Below are positions 1-47,128 of a stretch of DNA of 64,000 bases, piece after piece (the stretch's first letter is position 1; every line of letters starts with the position of its first letter). The position numbers and the translations under genes are program-made. The notes under the pieces are model-generated. The model saw nothing but the letters and a program-made list of their open reading frames with translations. It was not told the origin of the DNA and did not search any database. The stretch lies in the NCBI RefSeq assembly GCF_054482595.1, contig NZ_CM137008.1; one strand, 5' to 3'.

Positions 1-744
1 GAGAAAGAACTGAATAAAAAATATCTGGAAGAGCGTCTCAGCGATCAGCAGGATTATTATGCAAAGGCTGATGCTTTACGCAGTAACTGGAATGCCGGAC
101 TCCAGGAGGGGCTGACGAACTGGGCAGACAGTGCCACTGATTATGCTTCGCAGGCGGCAGATGCTGTCGTTTCCACTATGGACGGGCTGGTATCAAATAT
201 TTCCGATGCACTGGCCGGAAATGTTGTGGACTGGAGAAACTGGGGGAGTTCAATTCTCCAGGAAGTTTCAAAAATTCTGATGAACGCTGCCATCGTTAAC
301 GGGCTGAAGTCACTTTCCAAAAGCATGTCCGGTGCCGGAGGATGGCTTGGTACAGTCGGCGACTGGCTGTCCGGTGCAGTGGCAAACGCAAAAGGTGGTG
401 TTTATACATCGGCAAATCTGAGTGCTTACAGTAACACTATTGTGGATACACCGACGTATTTTGCTTTTGCGAAAGGTGCCGGGTTGATGGGCGAGGCCGG
501 GCCTGAAGCAATCATGCCACTGACACGGGCAGCGGACGGCTCTCTTGGGGTCAGGGCCATTGGAAATGTGAATGGTGGCGGTGGATTTGTTTATTCTCCC
601 GTGTATCACATCAGCATTCAGAATCAAGGGAGCAATGGCGAGATAGATGCGCGCTCAGCCAGGGGACTGGTGGATCTGATCGACAGCAGGGTTGTGTCAA
701 TTATGCAGTCATCACGTCGGGACGGAGGATTATGCAGTGCCTGA
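1..744 (+). CDS. H: Tail tape-measure protein, C-terminal part (lambda gpH-like); 5' end lies outside the window
   Basis: Frame 1 is open from position 1 to the stop at 742..744; the translation resembles the lambda H C-terminus; followed by M, L, K, I, J in lambda order. Confidence 0.8.
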   Translation, partial: EKELNKKYLEERLSDQQDYYAKADALRSNWNAGLQEGLTNWADSATDYASQAADAVVSTMDGLVSNISDALAGNVVDWRNWGSSILQEVSKILMNAAIVNGLKSLSKSMSGAGGWLGTVGDWLSGAVANAKGGVYTSANLSAYSNTIVDTPTYFAFAKGAGLMGEAGPEAIMPLTRAADGSLGVRAIGNVNGGGGFVYSPVYHISIQNQGSNGEIDARSARGLVDLIDSRVVSIMQSSRRDGGLCSA

Positions 745-1078
745 GTCTGAAGTTTTTAACTGGATCCCCCGCGAGGGGATGGAGACGACACGAAAGCCAT
801 CTGTTATTACGGTAAAGTTCGGTGACGGATATGAACAGCGACGGGCTGGTGGTCTGAATGCAGATCTGAAAACGTTTAAACCGGTATTTCGTGTCACGGA
901 TGAATATTCCCGTGCCGCGCTGGACAGTTTTTTATCCCGTCATGCCGGGGTTCGTGCTTTTTTGTGGCGTCCGCCAAAACACAACAGGACTGTCCGGGTT
1001 GTCTGCAGGGAGTGGAGCATTTCGGATAATGCCATGTATACCGATTTTAACTGTACCTTTGAAGAGGTCACTCACTGA
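737..1078 (+). CDS. M: Minor tail protein M
   Basis: Translation resembles lambda gpM; a GTG at 737 with GGAGG 8 nt upstream overlaps the H stop; the ATG at 692 in the ORF track would add an N-terminal extension inside H. Confidence 0.8.
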   Translation: MPESEVFNWIPREGMETTRKPSVITVKFGDGYEQRRAGGLNADLKTFKPVFRVTDEYSRAALDSFLSRHAGVRAFLWRPPKHNRTVRVVCREWSISDNAMYTDFNCTFEEVTH

Positions 1079-1776
1079 TGCAGGATATACAGCAGGAAAC
1101 ACTCAATGAGTGCACTAAAACGGAGCAATCCGCGCTGGTCGTGCTCTGGGAAATTGATCTGACAGAGGTCGGCGGAGATCGTTATTTCTTCTGTAATGAG
1201 CAGAACGAAAAAGGTGAACCAGTCACCTGGCAGGGGCGGCAGTATCAGGCCTATCCCATTCAGGGAAGTGGATTTGAGATGAACGGCAAAGGAGCCAGTG
1301 CAAGGCCAACGCTGAAAGTCTCTAATCTGCACGGCATGGTCACCGGGATGGCGGAAGACCTGCAGAGTCTGGTCGGCGGAACGGTGGTCAGGCGTAAGGT
1401 TTACGCCCGTTTTCTGGATGTGGTGAACTTCGTCAACGGAAACAGCGAAGCCGATCCGGAGCAGGAGGTGATCAGCCGCTGGCGCATCGAGCAGTGCAGC
1501 GAACTGAGCGCGGTGAGTGCCTCTTTTGTACTGTCCACGCCGACGGAAACGGATGGTGCTGTTTTTCCGGGACGTACCATGCTGGCCAACACCTGCACCT
1601 GGACCTATCGCGGTGATGAGTGCGGTTATCACGGTCCGGCGGTTGCGGATGAATATGACCAGCCGACGTCCGATATCACGAAGGATAAATGCAGCAAATG
1701 CCTGAGTGGTTGTAAGTTCCGCAATAACGTCGGCAACTTTGGCGGCTTCCTTTCCATTAACAAACTTTCGCAGTAA
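1078..1776 (+). CDS. L: Minor tail protein L
   Basis: 232-aa ORF resembling lambda gpL; its ATG overlaps the M stop (TGATG). Confidence 0.9.
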   Translation: MQDIQQETLNECTKTEQSALVVLWEIDLTEVGGDRYFFCNEQNEKGEPVTWQGRQYQAYPIQGSGFEMNGKGASARPTLKVSNLHGMVTGMAEDLQSLVGGTVVRRKVYARFLDVVNFVNGNSEADPEQEVISRWRIEQCSELSAVSASFVLSTPTETDGAVFPGRTMLANTCTWTYRGDECGYHGPAVADEYDQPTSDITKDKCSKCLSGCKFRNNVGNFGGFLSINKLSQ

Positions 1777-42868: not shown

Positions 42869-43420
42869 ATGAAAAAGCTTATCGTTTCAAGTGTATTGGC
42901 ATTCATAACATTTTCTGCGCAGGCCGCAGCATTTCAGGTCACTAGTAATGAAATAAAAACAGGAGAGCAACTTACAACGTCTCATGTATTTTCTGGATTT
43001 GGGTGTGAGGGGGGTAATACATCGCCCTCATTAACCTGGTCTGGTGCTCCAGAAGGCACCAAAAGCTTTGCCGTAACTGTGTATGATCCAGATGCGCCTA
43101 CAGGCAGTGGATGGTGGCACTGGACTGTTGCTAATATTCCAGCAACGGTAACATATTTGCCCGCTGATGCAGGAAGACGTGATGGTACAAAACTTCCGAC
43201 TGGTGCTGTCCAAGGCCGAAATGATTTTGGCTATGCAGGATTTGGTGGAGCATGTCCTCCCAAAGGAGATAAACCCCATCATTACCAGTTTAAAGTATGG
43301 GCTCTAAAAACTGATAAGATTCCTGTAGATTCTAATTCCAGCGGAGCGTTAGTTGGTTATATGCTTAATGCCAATAAAATTGCAACCGCTGAGATAACAC
43401 CAGTTTATGAGGTAAAGTAG
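42869..43420 (+). CDS. ybcL: Periplasmic PEBP/RKIP-family protein YbcL
   Basis: 183-aa ORF with signal peptide; resembles DLP12 YbcL. Confidence 0.85.
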   Translation: MKKLIVSSVLAFITFSAQAAAFQVTSNEIKTGEQLTTSHVFSGFGCEGGNTSPSLTWSGAPEGTKSFAVTVYDPDAPTGSGWWHWTVANIPATVTYLPADAGRRDGTKLPTGAVQGRNDFGYAGFGGACPPKGDKPHHYQFKVWALKTDKIPVDSNSSGALVGYMLNANKIATAEITPVYEVK

Positions 43421-43429
43421 GGTAAGAGT

Positions 43430-44227
43430 ATGCTGGCAAAAGATAGGACTAACCTAAAGATTGAAGAAATACGGATGCATAAACATCATGAGATTCACAG
43501 GGTTAAGCCTCTTATGCCAGCTTTATGTCGTATCCGTCAGGGAAAAAAAGTTATCAATTGGGAAACGCATAGTCTAACTGTTGATAATAATCAGATAATT
43601 TTATTTCCCTGTGGATATGAATTTTATATTGCGAATTACCCAGAAGCAGGTCTTTATCTTGCAGAAATGCTTTATTATCCCATTGATCTAATTGAAAGGT
43701 TCCAAAAGCTTTATGCGATAACTGATCAAATTCGTAACACGACAGGTTTCTGCTTACCTCAGAATCCCGAGTTAATATATTGTTGGGAGCAACTAAAAAC
43801 ATCTATTTCCCGAGGCTTCTCAACGCAAATTCAGGAACACTTAGCAATGGGCGTTCTACTTTCATTAGGAGCACATCATGTTAATTATTTGCTTTTATCA
43901 GATAGTAAACAATCATTAATAAGTCGTTGTTATAACCTAATGCTATCCGAACCTGGAACAAAATGGACAGCAAACAAAGTAGCGAGATATCTCTACATTT
44001 CTGTTTCCACATTGCATCGCCGTCTGGCAAGCGAGGGAGTAAGTTTTCAAAGTATATTGGACGACGTGAGGTTAAATAATGCGTTGTCTGCTATACAAAC
44101 GACAGTAAAACCCATCAGCGAGATTGCCAGGGAAAATGGTTACAAGTGTCCTTCTCGTTTTACTGAAAGGTTCCATAATCGTTTTAAGATAACACCAAGA
44201 GAGCTAAGAAAAGCGTCCAGAGAGTAA
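43430..44227 (+). CDS. ybcM: AraC-family transcriptional regulator (YbcM-like)
   Basis: 265-aa ORF with C-terminal AraC-type HTH ([12 protein letters not shown]...[12 protein letters not shown]). Confidence 0.75.
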
Positions 44228-45159
44228 AAGTATTTTATGAAGGAGCAACAGCATCGATTTTTATTTTGGAAAATAAATACGGCATACTCAACCTATTGGA
44301 GCCTGAACAATCCGGTGACTTCTGCGCTAATCGGGGACGTTTATAAGCACATATAATTGATACTATCTTCCTCCATCACAATTTCAGAAATGCACGTGTG
44401 ATTTTTTTGCATCCGGCGTTTGGACTATGTGGAGTTCAAGAGTGGGAAAGTTACAAGAGGTTGAGGGGATAATTAAAGGGATGCTTATGACATTAGATAT
44501 CCGGATAGGTACGGATATCGTTGTTATTAAATCTAGTTTATACGTTAAGATGCAGCTACAGCAGAAATTGCCATTGTTAATTTTTTCATCGTGAGCCCTT
44601 TTATTTGTACTATTATTTAAAAATGATGTCACTGCACTACAAATACTCATCTAATCAATGAGATTATTTCAAGATTTAAGTTTTAGTTTCTCATTTAAAT
44701 TGTGAAGTAGATCCCTCCTTTTATCTGAACTGTTTCTATTGCACACAATGCATGACTATTTTGTGAACGAATATAAATTTGGTAATCAAATTATATTAAA
44801 GGTTGTTATTTATGATTGACTCATAATTTATTTTTTTTAATTTAAATAGCCTAAAAATAACCATGGAGATTATTTGCATGATATTTGTTTAGATTTGTTA
44901 ATGTAATTGAGGTGATTTTATTTAATACGCAATATAGCGCCGCTTGATATTAGTTCTATTTTTTTGCGTAAGATAGATGAGACAAACTGAGACGCATAAT
45001 GGTTTGCAAGGCTCTAATACTTTGATGTTGAGGATGTGATGGGGCATGTACGGGGCATAGTACAATGATGTCCATGCAGGTGTAGATAATCTCCAGGCTT
45101 ATCCAGTGCGCCGTAAAACCCCGTCCTTCAGGGCGGGGATATAAGGCTCGGTTTTTCAC

Positions 45160-45591
45160 CTAACCAGGTGTTTGCTGTTGTTCAATGTATTGGCGGATGA
45201 CGGATATTGGCGCACCTCCGCAGCTACTGGCAAAATAGCCGGGACTCCACAAAACGCCTTTGTAGTAATACCTGACTGCAATATCTGGTCGATCTCGTCG
45301 CAGTAATCTACCCGATACGCCTTTGAGGCTGTTTACCAGACTGGATATCGCCAGTTTGGGAGGATAGTTAATTAACAAATGGACGTGATCTGGTTCGCCA
45401 TCCATTTCAACCAGTTCAGCTTCAAAATCAGCACATACATTTGAAAAGTAAGTGCGTAGTTTTTCTGTCGCGTCATGGTCAAAAATCTGACGTCGGTATT
45501 TGGTGACAAAGACCAGGTGAACATGCATCAGGAAAACACAGTGCCTTCCACGCCGGATATCGGTTTCTTTTTTCACAGACCAAAGTATCAT
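45160..45591 (-). CDS. tnpA: IS200-type Y1 (HUH) transposase TnpA
   Basis: HVHLL HUH motif and C-terminal tyrosine region (YYYKGVLWSPGYFASSCGGAPISVIRQYIEQQ); the true start may be an internal Met. Confidence 0.85.
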   Translation of the reverse strand: MILWSVKKETDIRRGRHCVFLMHVHLVFVTKYRRQIFDHDATEKLRTYFSNVCADFEAELVEMDGEPDHVHLLINYPPKLAISSLVNSLKGVSGRLLRRDRPDIAVRYYYKGVLWSPGYFASSCGGAPISVIRQYIEQQQTPG

Positions 45592-45598
45592 TTGGCCT

Positions 45599-46417
45599 GT
45601 GAAACGACTACAAGCATTTAAATTCCAGTTAAGACCCGGTGGTCAACAGGAGCGTGAAATGAGGCGCTTCGCAGGCGCATGTCGTTTCGTTTTCAATCGT
45701 GCTCTGGCGCTTCAGAATGAGAATCATGAGGCCGGTAATAAATACATCCCTTACGGGAAAATGGCTTCCTGGTTGGTTGAGTGGAAAAACGCCACTGAAA
45801 CGCAATGGCTTAAAGATTCGCCCTCACAGCCATTGCAACAGTCACTGAAAGACCTTGAGCGGGCTTACAAAAACTTCTTCCAGAAGCGGGCTGCTTTTCC
45901 CCGATTCAAAACGCGGGGACAGAATGATGCATTCCGCTACCCGCAGGGCGTTAAGCTCGATCAGGAAAACAGCCGTATTTTTCTGCCGAAACTTGGCTGG
46001 ATGCGCTACCGGAATAACCGTCAGGTCACGGGTGTTGTGAAAAATGTCACTGTCAGCCAGCCGGGGCGCAATGTCCGGGCAAAATCAGGTTTAAACCGTT
46101 CGATACTGGATCAGGGCTGGTATGAAATGCGCCGTCAGCTTGAGTACAAGCAGCTCTGGCGTGGCGGTCAGGTGCTTGCTGTTCCGCCAGCGTACACAAG
46201 CCAGCGTTGCGCGTGCTGTGGTCATACAGCGAAAGAAAATCGCCTGTCACAAAGTAAATTCAGATGCCAGGTATGTGGATATACAGCGAACGCCGATGTA
46301 AATGGCGCTCGTAACATTTTAGCGGCGGGGCACGCCGTTCTTGCCTGTGGAGAGATGGTGCAGTCAGGCCGCTCGTTGAAGCAGGAACCCACCGAAATGA
46401 TTCAGGCGACAGCCTGA
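45599..46417 (+). CDS. tnpB: TnpB-like protein with apparent internal deletion of the RuvC-I/RuvC-II core; predicted nuclease-inactive
   Basis: 272 aa versus the usual ~400; N-terminus typical of TnpB (QAFKFQLRP...[15 protein letters not shown]); C-terminus keeps the CxxC..CxxC zinc finger and an ADVNGARNI RuvC-III-like motif; no GxDxG/E segment in between. Confidence 0.7.
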
Positions 46418-46456
46418 ACGTAGCAGGGATCCACGTCCTTCAGGGCGTGGAGGATG

Positions 46457-47128
46457 TCAACAAACAGGTTGAATTAACTCCGCGCCCTGGTTTTTGACAT
46501 TACCTACCGCGCGCGATACCGGGTGCCAGGTGAACTGGTTTGCTGGCACACAGCCACTGGCAGCGATTTCTGAGGCTTCTTTACCACCAATGTCTTGCCG
46601 CATCCATTCCCGCGCAGCTTCTGGCGACAGTACCAGCGGGCGGCGGTCATGAATATCTACCAGACCCTGGTCTGCTGCTGCAGTGACAATTAAAAATCCT
46701 TCGGCTTCGTCACCACGCTCAAACGGTGTGCTACCTATCGCGGCCATAAAAACAGGTTGTCCATCAGCGCGATAGATAAAATAAGGCTGTTTTTTGTCGC
46801 CTTCTTTTTTCCACTCAAACCAGCCATCGGCAAAACAGATTGCCCGACCATGTTGCCAGAGCGGTTTAAACATACGACTGGTTGCCGCAGTTTCTACGCG
46901 GGCGTTAATCAGCGGCGATTTATCCCACCATCCGGGAGCATATCCCCAGAAAACCGGATCCAGATGAAGGTGTTCATCACGTTCACTGAGCAGAAGAACT
47001 TTGGTTCCCGGCGCGACGTTGTATCTGCCAATGGGTTCGGGATCGTAGGGAATATCGCGTTCAATATCTTCCGCGAGAAGCGCAAGGTAATCTTCACGCG
47101 TTTGGGATTGGGCAAAGCGTCCACACAT
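46457..47128 (-). CDS. yedK: SOS-response-associated peptidase (SRAP/HMCES family; abasic-site DNA-protein crosslinking)
   Basis: 223-aa ORF beginning MCGRFAQ with the catalytic Cys at position 2. Confidence 0.9.
   Translation of the reverse strand: MCGRFAQSQTREDYLALLAEDIERDIPYDPEPIGRYNVAPGTKVLLLSERDEHLHLDPVFWGYAPGWWDKSPLINARVETAATSRMFKPLWQHGRAICFADGWFEWKKEGDKKQPYFIYRADGQPVFMAAIGSTPFERGDEAEGFLIVTAAADQGLVDIHDRRPLVLSPEAAREWMRQDIGGKEASEIAASGCVPANQFTWHPVSRAVGNVKNQGAELIQPVC

What the first reader, a model, noticed from the sequence alone, without database searches (positions are those of the whole stretch)
45599..46417. TnpB-like ORF that appears to lack the RuvC-I/RuvC-II catalytic core
The 272-aa ORF opens like a canonical TnpB (QAFKFQLRP...ACRFVFN, then PKLGWMRY...VKNVTV) and closes like one ([16 protein letters not shown], CxxC-x15-CxxC zinc finger, ADVNGARNI RuvC-III-like motif). 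The text runs straight from ...[11 protein letters not shown] into [11 protein letters not shown]..., so the ~130 residues that normally hold RuvC-I (GxDxG) and RuvC-II (catalytic Glu) seem to be missing in frame. That predicts an RNA- and DNA-binding protein that cannot cleave. It could be a decaying IS copy or a TldR-like exapted RNA-guided DNA binder. The neighbouring tnpA looks intact, which favours a partly decayed but possibly mobilisable element. The motif mapping is from my memory of TnpB architecture, not an alignment.
Basis: partly seen in the sequence, partly recalled or inferred. Interest (0 to 1): 0.72.

Follow-up and report, generated by a model that had tools for sequence, protein, structure and literature searches.

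The report
Internally deleted IS609 tnpB gene
This is an ordinary decaying copy of the E. coli insertion sequence IS609, whose RNA-guided nuclease gene tnpB lost 130 codons in frame, including two of its three catalytic residues; nothing indicates the remnant has acquired a new function.

Summary
The 272-aa ORF at 45599..46417 is an IS609 (IS200/IS605 family) tnpB with an exact 390-bp (130-codon) in-frame deletion relative to the 402-aa gene found at the same chromosomal site in other E. coli. The deletion lies between two copies of a 9-bp direct repeat, GTCAGCCAG, each encoding part of TVSQ. It removes RuvC-I (D183) and RuvC-II (E267), the last WED strands and the RuvC helices that hold the omega RNA. 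The zinc finger and RuvC-III Asp remain.

The element is otherwise whole:
- target TTAT
- left- and right-end hairpins
- intact HUH/Tyr tnpA
- intact 3' omega-RNA region

It sits in the stop codon of yedK. The same junction occurs once each in 30 of 5426 complete E. coli genomes. All 30 have it at this locus, so there is no sign that the deleted element has moved. All other close relatives are 402 aa with the RuvC Pfam domain.

In a strain identical to the window here, a second IS609 copy has a full-length tnpB and a dead tnpA. TldR-like exaptation is not supported. This is routine IS decay by a repeat-mediated deletion. Interest is low.

The parts
45099..45102 (+). TTAT target / TAM-equivalent tetranucleotide immediately 5' of the left end
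   Evidence: TTAT(C) precedes the element at three independent IS609 loci whose flanks otherwise differ. The empty site reads ...GGCTTAT|CAAACAGG....
45103..46460 (+). IS609-like IS200/IS605 element, 1358 bp here (1748 bp without the deletion); no terminal inverted repeats and no target duplication
   Evidence: Boundaries come from the empty site in strain 400625 and from the point where the yedK and ydcO copies diverge after ...GATGTCAA. Copies at other loci match query positions 200..1561-1563 of 44900-46500.
45119..45138 (+). Left-end subterminal imperfect hairpin CCCCGTCC-TTCA-GGGCGGGG
   Evidence: 2 matches in the window against 0.01 expected
45160..45591 (-). tnpA, 143 aa, intact Y1 HUH transposase (DHVHLL; catalytic Tyr in RQYIEQQ)
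   Evidence: NCBIfam transpos_IS200 at 148 bits against a cut-off of 55, covering profile positions 2-126 of 126. Near-full-length alignment to IS608 and ISDra2 TnpA structures. Not flagged as a pseudogene in RefSeq.
45599..46417 (+). tnpB with a 130-codon in-frame internal deletion (272 aa instead of 402)
46052..46060 (+). Deletion junction: the single remaining copy of the 9-bp direct repeat GTCAGCCAG. The repeat occurs twice, 390 bp apart, in full-length copies, and each copy lies within codons for TVSQ.
46208..46276 (+). Retained CxxC-x15-CxxC zinc finger (TNB domain; C204, C207, C223, C226)
   Evidence: Pfam PF07282 at residues 174-240, E 3e-24; alignment to ISDra2
46295..46297 (+). Retained RuvC-III Asp codon (D233, which is D363 of the full-length protein and D361 of ISDra2)
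46240..46460 (+). Presumed omega-RNA scaffold region (3' end of tnpB plus the right end), untouched by the deletion
   Evidence: Sub-threshold Rfam matches to HgcC and sot0042 at 46290..46473. RNA fold z = -3.0. Differs at 4 of about 230 nt from the ydcO copy that has a full-length tnpB. The RNA itself is inferred, not shown.
46431..46450 (+). Right-end subterminal imperfect hairpin CCACGTCC-TTCA-GGGCGTGG. The element ends about 10 nt downstream, after TCAA.
46461..46476 (+). Flank that would act as the 16-nt omega-RNA guide (CAAACAGGTTGAATTA, the 3' end of yedK)
   Evidence: Inferred from TnpB biology. The only match in the window to TTAT plus guide (up to 3 mismatches) is the right-end junction itself, where TCAA stands in place of TTAT.
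46457..47128 (-). yedK (SOS response-associated peptidase). Its stop codon was split by the insertion and is now supplied by the IS end, so the product is 223 aa instead of 222 aa (+Cys).

Best explanation
An IS609 copy (IS200/IS605 family) inserted 3' of a TTAT inside the yedK stop codon in an ancestor shared by at least a fifth of sequenced E. coli. In one sub-lineage, slippage or recombination between two 9-bp direct repeats (GTCAGCCAG), 390 bp apart inside tnpB, removed 130 codons in frame. The resulting 272-aa protein keeps the N-terminal WED strand, the REC domain, part of the WED domain, the last part of RuvC with its third Asp, and the zinc finger. It lacks D183, E267, the end of the WED barrel, most of the RuvC RNase H core and the helices that clamp the omega RNA. 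It is therefore a dead nuclease and most likely a non-functional remnant that stays open only because the deletion was a multiple of three.

Shown: the deletion, its repeat-flanked junction, the lost catalytic residues, the intact ends and tnpA, and the single-locus, single-species distribution. Inferred: the slippage mechanism, loss of RNA binding, lack of function, and the possibility that this copy's TnpA and omega RNA work in trans with the full-length TnpB of the second IS609 copy in the same genome.
For: The deletion is exactly 390 bp and is flanked by the 9-bp repeat in five full-length alleles from three loci; a sixth allele (O157) has GCCAGCCAG at the upstream copy. D183 and E267 fall inside the deletion by alignment to ISDra2 TnpB. 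The domain map and RNA contacts come from PMC10097598. The Pfam RuvC domain PF01385 is absent here but present in every 402-aa relative. The junction 45-mer occurs in 30 of 5426 genomes, one copy each, and all are next to yedK. The IS sits at this site in at least 1090 genomes. The two deletion haplotypes share three derived synonymous sites, which points to a single origin. Other decay at the same locus is common: tnpA is a pseudogene in STEC276, 2013C-4282 and W. The ends, the hairpins and tnpA are intact. Strain 13C1079T has a second copy with a full-length insQ and a dead tnpA.
Against: The truncated ORF has stayed open in at least three haplotypes and is abundant, with the exact sequence on at least 1000 contigs. 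pN/pS between the two main haplotypes is 0.38, which is not obviously neutral. That figure rests on only 4 non-synonymous and 3 synonymous changes, and it lies within the 0.12-0.57 range of the full-length pairs. No expression, folding or binding data exist, and no structure was predicted.
Confidence: 0.9

Rival explanations
1. TldR-like exaptation: the nuclease-dead protein still loads the omega RNA and acts as an RNA-guided DNA binder or repressor.
For: Two of the three catalytic residues are gone, while the ORF, the zinc finger and the 3' RNA region are kept. The allele is common in one lineage.
Against: TldRs keep the overall fold and RNA-binding interface and have point mutations or C-terminal truncations. 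Here an internal block equal to about ISDra2 158-290 is missing, including the omega-RNA contacts. The gene remains inside an IS with both ends and a tnpA. The guide-equivalent sequence is simply the insertion flank in the yedK 3' end, with no other target in the window. No truncated homologues occur outside a single E. coli 90% cluster.
Confidence: 0.03
2. The remnant has an RNA-independent role, for example TAM or DNA binding through REC and the partial WED domain, or modulation of TnpA-mediated transposition, and this role favours its retention.
For: By alignment to ISDra2 TnpB, the positions equivalent to its TAM-contacting REC/WED residues (Y52, K76, F77, Q80, T123, N124) lie in the retained N-terminal part; their identities were not checked. 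The ORF is open in several haplotypes.
Against: There is no evidence of selection. Singleton missense variants are scattered along the protein. The WED barrel is incomplete. The allele is present in only 30 of at least 1090 genomes that carry the IS at this site.
Confidence: 0.05
3. This is the normal length for the family, or the gap is a sequencing or assembly artefact.
For: None was found.
Against: The gene is 402 aa at the same locus and at other loci. Clusters of 21309 and 2768 member sequences are 402 aa. The identical junction occurs in 30 independently finished genomes.
Confidence: 0.01

Closest known systems
IS609 of Escherichia coli (IS200/IS605 family, divergent tnpA/tnpB; insQ in K-12 nomenclature)
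   Same: It is 97-98% identical at the DNA level to copies whose tnpA RefSeq labels as IS609 family. It has the same TTAT target, left- and right-end hairpins, TCAA right end, and a divergent tnpA/tnpB pair only 7 bp apart.
   Different: It carries a 390-bp in-frame deletion inside tnpB, making the element 1358 bp instead of 1748 bp.
ISDra2 TnpB (PDB 8bf8/8exa/8h1j), the characterised RNA-guided nuclease
   Same: The full-length parent aligns over residues 3-376 at E 2.6e-54 with the D/E/D triad and the CCCC finger conserved.
   Different: The window protein lacks the equivalent of about residues 158-290, which covers the end of WED, RuvC-I, the RNA-binding helices and RuvC-II.
TldR (TnpB-like nuclease-dead repressors; bioRxiv 10.1101/2023.11.30.569447)
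   Same: It is a TnpB relative without a complete RuvC triad.
   Different: TldRs keep the fold and RNA interface, have lost the transposon context, sit next to fliC_P or oppF, target promoters, and form conserved clades. None of this holds here.
Other decayed IS609 alleles in E. coli
   Same: They show the same kind of lineage-specific damage. tnpA is a pseudogene at the yedK and ydcO loci. Another tnpB allele carries a 70-aa in-frame tandem duplication.
   Different: Here the damage is in tnpB while tnpA is spared.

Membership tests
TnpB (IS200/IS605 RNA-guided endonuclease) | Sequence homology to the TnpB profile | tested here: met
   NCBIfam NF040570 guided_TnpB scores 223 bits against a cut-off of 100, but in two separate stretches.
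TnpB (IS200/IS605 RNA-guided endonuclease) | Complete RuvC domain with the D-E-D catalytic triad | tested here: not met
   D183 and E267 are deleted and only D363 (D233 here) remains. Pfam PF01385 is absent.
TnpB (IS200/IS605 RNA-guided endonuclease) | CCCC zinc finger (TNB domain) | tested here: met
   PF07282 at E 3e-24; C204, C207, C223 and C226 are present.
TnpB (IS200/IS605 RNA-guided endonuclease) | Omega RNA encoded at the 3' end of the gene and the right end | tested here: inconclusive
   The region is intact and nearly identical to that of full-length copies. The fold z-score is -3.0. The Rfam matches to HgcC and sot0042 are below the gathering scores. There are no transcript data.
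TnpB (IS200/IS605 RNA-guided endonuclease) | RNA-guided, TAM-dependent DNA cleavage | not testable with these tools
   This needs biochemical or plasmid-interference assays. The sequence predicts no activity.
IS200/IS605 family element (IS609) | Y1 HUH transposase TnpA | tested here: met
   NF033573 scores 148 bits against a cut-off of 55. The HUH motif and catalytic Tyr are present, and the protein aligns to IS608 and ISDra2 TnpA structures.
IS200/IS605 family element (IS609) | Subterminal imperfect palindromes at both ends and no terminal inverted repeats | tested here: met
   Hairpins lie at 45119-45138 and 46431-46450 with the same T.G mismatch.
IS200/IS605 family element (IS609) | Insertion 3' of a specific tetranucleotide without target duplication | tested here: met
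   Comparison with the empty site gives TTAT | element | CAAACAGG with no duplication. TTAT is also found at two other loci.
IS200/IS605 family element (IS609) | At least 95% identity to the ISfinder IS609 reference | not testable with these tools
   ISfinder was not available. The assignment rests on RefSeq's 'IS609 family' label on tnpA of copies 97-98% identical to this one.
TldR | Inactivated RuvC with the rest of the fold and the RNA interface preserved | tested here: not met
   The internal deletion removes the WED end, most of the RuvC core and the RNA-contact helices.
TldR | Loss of transposon context and association with a regulated host or phage gene | tested here: not met
   Both IS ends and tnpA are present. 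The guide-equivalent is the insertion flank.
TldR | Conserved clade across strains or species | tested here: not met
   The allele forms one 90% cluster of 150 members in E. coli, and all other close relatives are 402 aa.

The most novel reading that the evidence does not exclude
The Delta130 TnpB remnant (REC, partial WED and zinc finger) is a stable protein with a retained role, for example TAM-DNA binding or damping IS609 transposition. Alternatively, the two complementary half-dead IS609 copies in this lineage (tnpA-only at yedK, tnpB-only at ydcO) operate together as one split, still-active element.
Probability: 0.05. Interest if true: 0.4.

Novelty: already known. Interest (0 to 1): 0.1.

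Why it matters
It matters little. The case is a clean example of how a short direct repeat can delete the catalytic core of a TnpB gene in frame, leaving an ORF that annotation pipelines still label 'RNA-guided endonuclease'. That is a caution for surveys that look for nuclease-dead, exapted TnpBs using missing RuvC residues alone. Transposon context, conservation beyond one lineage and integrity of the fold all need checking. If the remnant turned out to be functional, it would be a very young exaptation, but nothing here points that way.

Tried and rejected
- **Rfam scan for a curated omega-RNA family.** Only sub-threshold matches appeared (HgcC 22.3 bits against a gathering score of 50, sot0042 17.1 against 88, RAGATH-18 29.5 against 44.9). 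I used these only as weak support that the 3' region is RNA-like.
- **Selection test.** Nei-Gojobori pN/pS between the two deletion haplotypes is 0.38, from 4 non-synonymous and 3 synonymous changes. This lies inside the spread of the full-length pairs, so it is uninformative.
- **Independent recurrence of the deletion.** I considered this because all 14 differences between the window and the MFDS allele lie upstream of the junction. I rejected it in favour of one origin plus recombination or drift, because both alleles share three derived synonymous sites (codons 5, 59, 309) and an intermediate haplotype exists (P0033).
- **Literature on IS609 TnpB.** Two papers mention both terms; judging from their titles and abstracts, neither concerns this allele.
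- **Structure prediction.** I did not run it. The available homologues are more than 95% identical, so the alignment would be too shallow. I judged the deep searches needed for a better alignment not worth their cost for this question.
- **Artefact and normal-length readings.** Both were rejected.

Full report
**What is there.** The window is E. coli chromosome and is 100% identical over this region to strain 13C1079T. The gene order is fliE-emrE-ybcL-ybcM, then an insertion sequence, then yedK-yedF-yedE-yedD-amyA. The insertion sequence carries two divergent genes separated by 7 bp. One is tnpA (45160..45591, minus strand, 143 aa). The other is the ORF in question (45599..46417, plus strand, 272 aa). 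RefSeq annotates them as an IS200/IS605 family transposase and an 'RNA-guided endonuclease InsQ/TnpB family protein'.

**Checking the observation.** In strain STEC276 the same chromosomal site holds a 1209-bp, 402-aa tnpB. DNA and protein alignments show about 97% identity interrupted by one gap of exactly 390 bp / 130 aa. In full-length copies the sequence GTCAGCCAG occurs twice, 390 bp apart. Each copy lies within codons for Thr-Val-Ser-Gln, at residues 151-154 and 281-284. The window keeps a single copy at 46052..46060, with the upstream context on its left and the downstream context on its right. This is the signature of replication slippage or recombination between short direct repeats, and it explains why the frame is kept.

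The full-length protein aligns with ISDra2 TnpB (PDB 8bf8/8exa) over residues 3-376 at E 2.6e-54. That alignment puts ISDra2 D191/E278/D361 on D183 (GLDAG), E267 (VIEDL) and D363 (NADVNG). D183 and E267 are inside the deletion. D363 survives as D233, and the CCCC finger survives as C204/C207/C223/C226. Pfam finds the N-terminal HTH_OrfB_IS605 domain and the Cas12f1-like TNB domain but no OrfB_IS605 RuvC domain. NCBIfam guided_TnpB matches in two pieces.

**What the deletion removes structurally.** The ISDra2 structure paper gives these domains: WED 1-12 and 117-176, REC 13-116, RuvC 185-326 and 360-375, TNB 327-359. It lists omega-RNA contacts at Q227, R231, R232, R238 and K263, and it reports residues 281-296 as disordered (PMC10097598). 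Through the alignment, the deleted block corresponds to about ISDra2 158-290. That covers the end of the WED barrel, the linker, most of the RuvC RNase H core around D191 and E278, and all of those RNA contacts. The 3' breakpoint falls in the loop that is disordered in ISDra2. The remnant is therefore not just catalytically dead. It lacks most of the RNase H core and much of the RNA-binding surface. This step is inference from homology; I did not predict a structure.

**The element around it.** Strain 400625 has an empty site reading ...GGCTTAT|CAAACAGGTTG.... The yedK and ydcO copies are identical up to ...GGATGTCAA and diverge afterwards. Three copies at different loci all have TTAT(C) immediately before CCRGTGCGCC. 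The element therefore spans 45103..46460 (1358 bp, or 1748 bp without the deletion). It inserted 3' of TTAT without a target duplication.

Subterminal hairpins lie near each end:
- CCCCGTCC-TTCA-GGGCGGGG at 45119-45138
- CCACGTCC-TTCA-GGGCGTGG at 46431-46450

They carry the same T.G mismatch and are the only two matches in the window. TnpA aligns nearly end to end with IS608 and ISDra2 TnpA structures and has the HUH motif and the C-terminal catalytic Tyr.

The 3' 220 nt of tnpB plus the right end fold better than shuffled sequence (z = -3.0). They give sub-threshold Rfam matches to HgcC and sot0042, which from my own knowledge are transcripts overlapping tnpB 3' ends. This region differs at only 4 positions from the copy with a full-length tnpB. 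So the ends, tnpA and the presumed omega-RNA region are intact, and only tnpB is damaged. The insertion split the yedK stop codon (GTT TG|A). The IS end supplies T TGA, so YedK gains one Cys and goes from 222 to 223 aa.

**Distribution.** A 45-nt probe across the junction cannot seed a match on full-length copies. It hits 30 of 5426 complete E. coli genomes, once each. All 30 hits are next to yedK. Of these, 28 are 99.7-100% identical to the window over 2.8 kb. The other two (MFDS strains) are about 98.3% identical and carry a group II intron near the right end. At least 1090 genomes have the IS at this site, and 4311 have a near-complete IS609 somewhere.

In the large protein collection the exact 272-aa sequence was seen on at least 1000 contigs. 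Its 90% cluster has 150 members, and the named ones are almost all labelled E. coli. Other close relatives are 402 aa with PF01385, in clusters of up to 21309 member sequences. Three deletion haplotypes exist: P0001, P0004 and the intermediate P0033. The window and MFDS alleles share three derived synonymous sites that are absent from five full-length alleles, which points to a single origin. pN/pS between them is 0.38 from only seven changes and is not distinguishable from the full-length pairs. The deleted element has not been found at any second locus.

**Same-genome context.** In 13C1079T the ydcL/ydcO locus carries another IS609 copy. It has a full-length insQ (402 aa, with D183 and E267 present) and a tnpA that is frameshifted and has an internal stop. 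At the yedK locus in STEC276, 2013C-4282 and W the pattern is reversed: tnpB is full length and tnpA is a pseudogene. IS609 copies fixed at chromosomal sites are thus decaying in different ways in different lineages. In this lineage the two copies are complementary on paper, with TnpA and an omega RNA from one and TnpB from the other. Whether they cooperate is untested.

**Comparison with known systems.** The element meets the tested IS200/IS605 criteria: Y1 HUH TnpA, subterminal hairpins, and tetranucleotide-specific insertion without duplication. It is 97-98% identical to copies labelled IS609. The protein is a TnpB homologue that fails the defining RuvC D-E-D feature.

It does not fit TldR. 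Those proteins keep the fold and RNA interface, have lost the transposon context, sit next to fliC_P or oppF, and form conserved clades. Here the fold is broken and the transposon context is intact. The guide-equivalent sequence is just the insertion flank, with no other target in the window. The allele is confined to E. coli. Its position near fliE simply reflects normal chromosome order.

**Verdict.** This is a real but ordinary feature: a repeat-mediated, in-frame internal deletion in the tnpB of a fixed IS609 copy. I put about 0.9 on the non-functional remnant reading, about 0.03 on TldR-like exaptation and about 0.05 on some other residual role. Novelty is 'already known' in kind. The element, the family and this exact protein (WP_071597101.1) are already in public databases, although nobody appears to have commented on the allele. 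Interest is about 0.1.

Noticed in passing
window 46457..46462 (yedK 3' end / IS right end); L003:1700-1710: The IS609 insertion lies inside the yedK stop codon. The IS end provides a new TGA, so YedK is 223 aa (…QPVC) instead of 222 aa (…QPV). The yedK gene therefore survives the insertion essentially unchanged.
   Followed up: yes
L009:12266-13909 (NZ_CP019267.1 2842265-2843908, ydcL/ydcO locus): The strain that is 100% identical to the window here has a second IS609 copy with the opposite damage: a full-length insQ/tnpB (402 aa) but a frameshifted tnpA with an internal stop. The two copies are complementary on paper.
   Followed up: partly
L004:2522-4394 (strain MFDS1019527); equivalent to window 46456/46457: In two deletion-carrying strains a group II intron (ltrA) is inserted 4 nt before the IS right end, just 3' of the right-end hairpin. 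Such introns often target sites after hairpins.
   Followed up: partly
protein P0031 / P0032 (E. coli, not in the window): Another IS609 tnpB allele carries a 70-aa in-frame tandem duplication of residues 276-344 (472 aa). It shows that in-frame internal rearrangements recur in this gene.
   Followed up: partly
window 45592..45598: tnpA and tnpB are divergent with only 7 bp between their start codons, so each gene's promoter must lie inside the other's coding sequence. Expression control was not examined.
   Followed up: no
window 42869..45098: emrE, ybcL and ybcM lie between fliE and the IS (from memory, these are DLP12-prophage genes in K-12). They are followed by an AT-rich stretch of about 870 bp with no annotated gene (44228..45098). 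In strain 400625 (L003) an ompC-like porin gene occupies the left side instead, so this is a variable region.
   Followed up: no
L002:3263-3694, L005:967-1392, L006:1007-1432: At the same yedK locus in STEC276, 2013C-4282 and E. coli W, tnpA is annotated as a pseudogene while tnpB is full length. This is the reverse of the window.
   Followed up: partly
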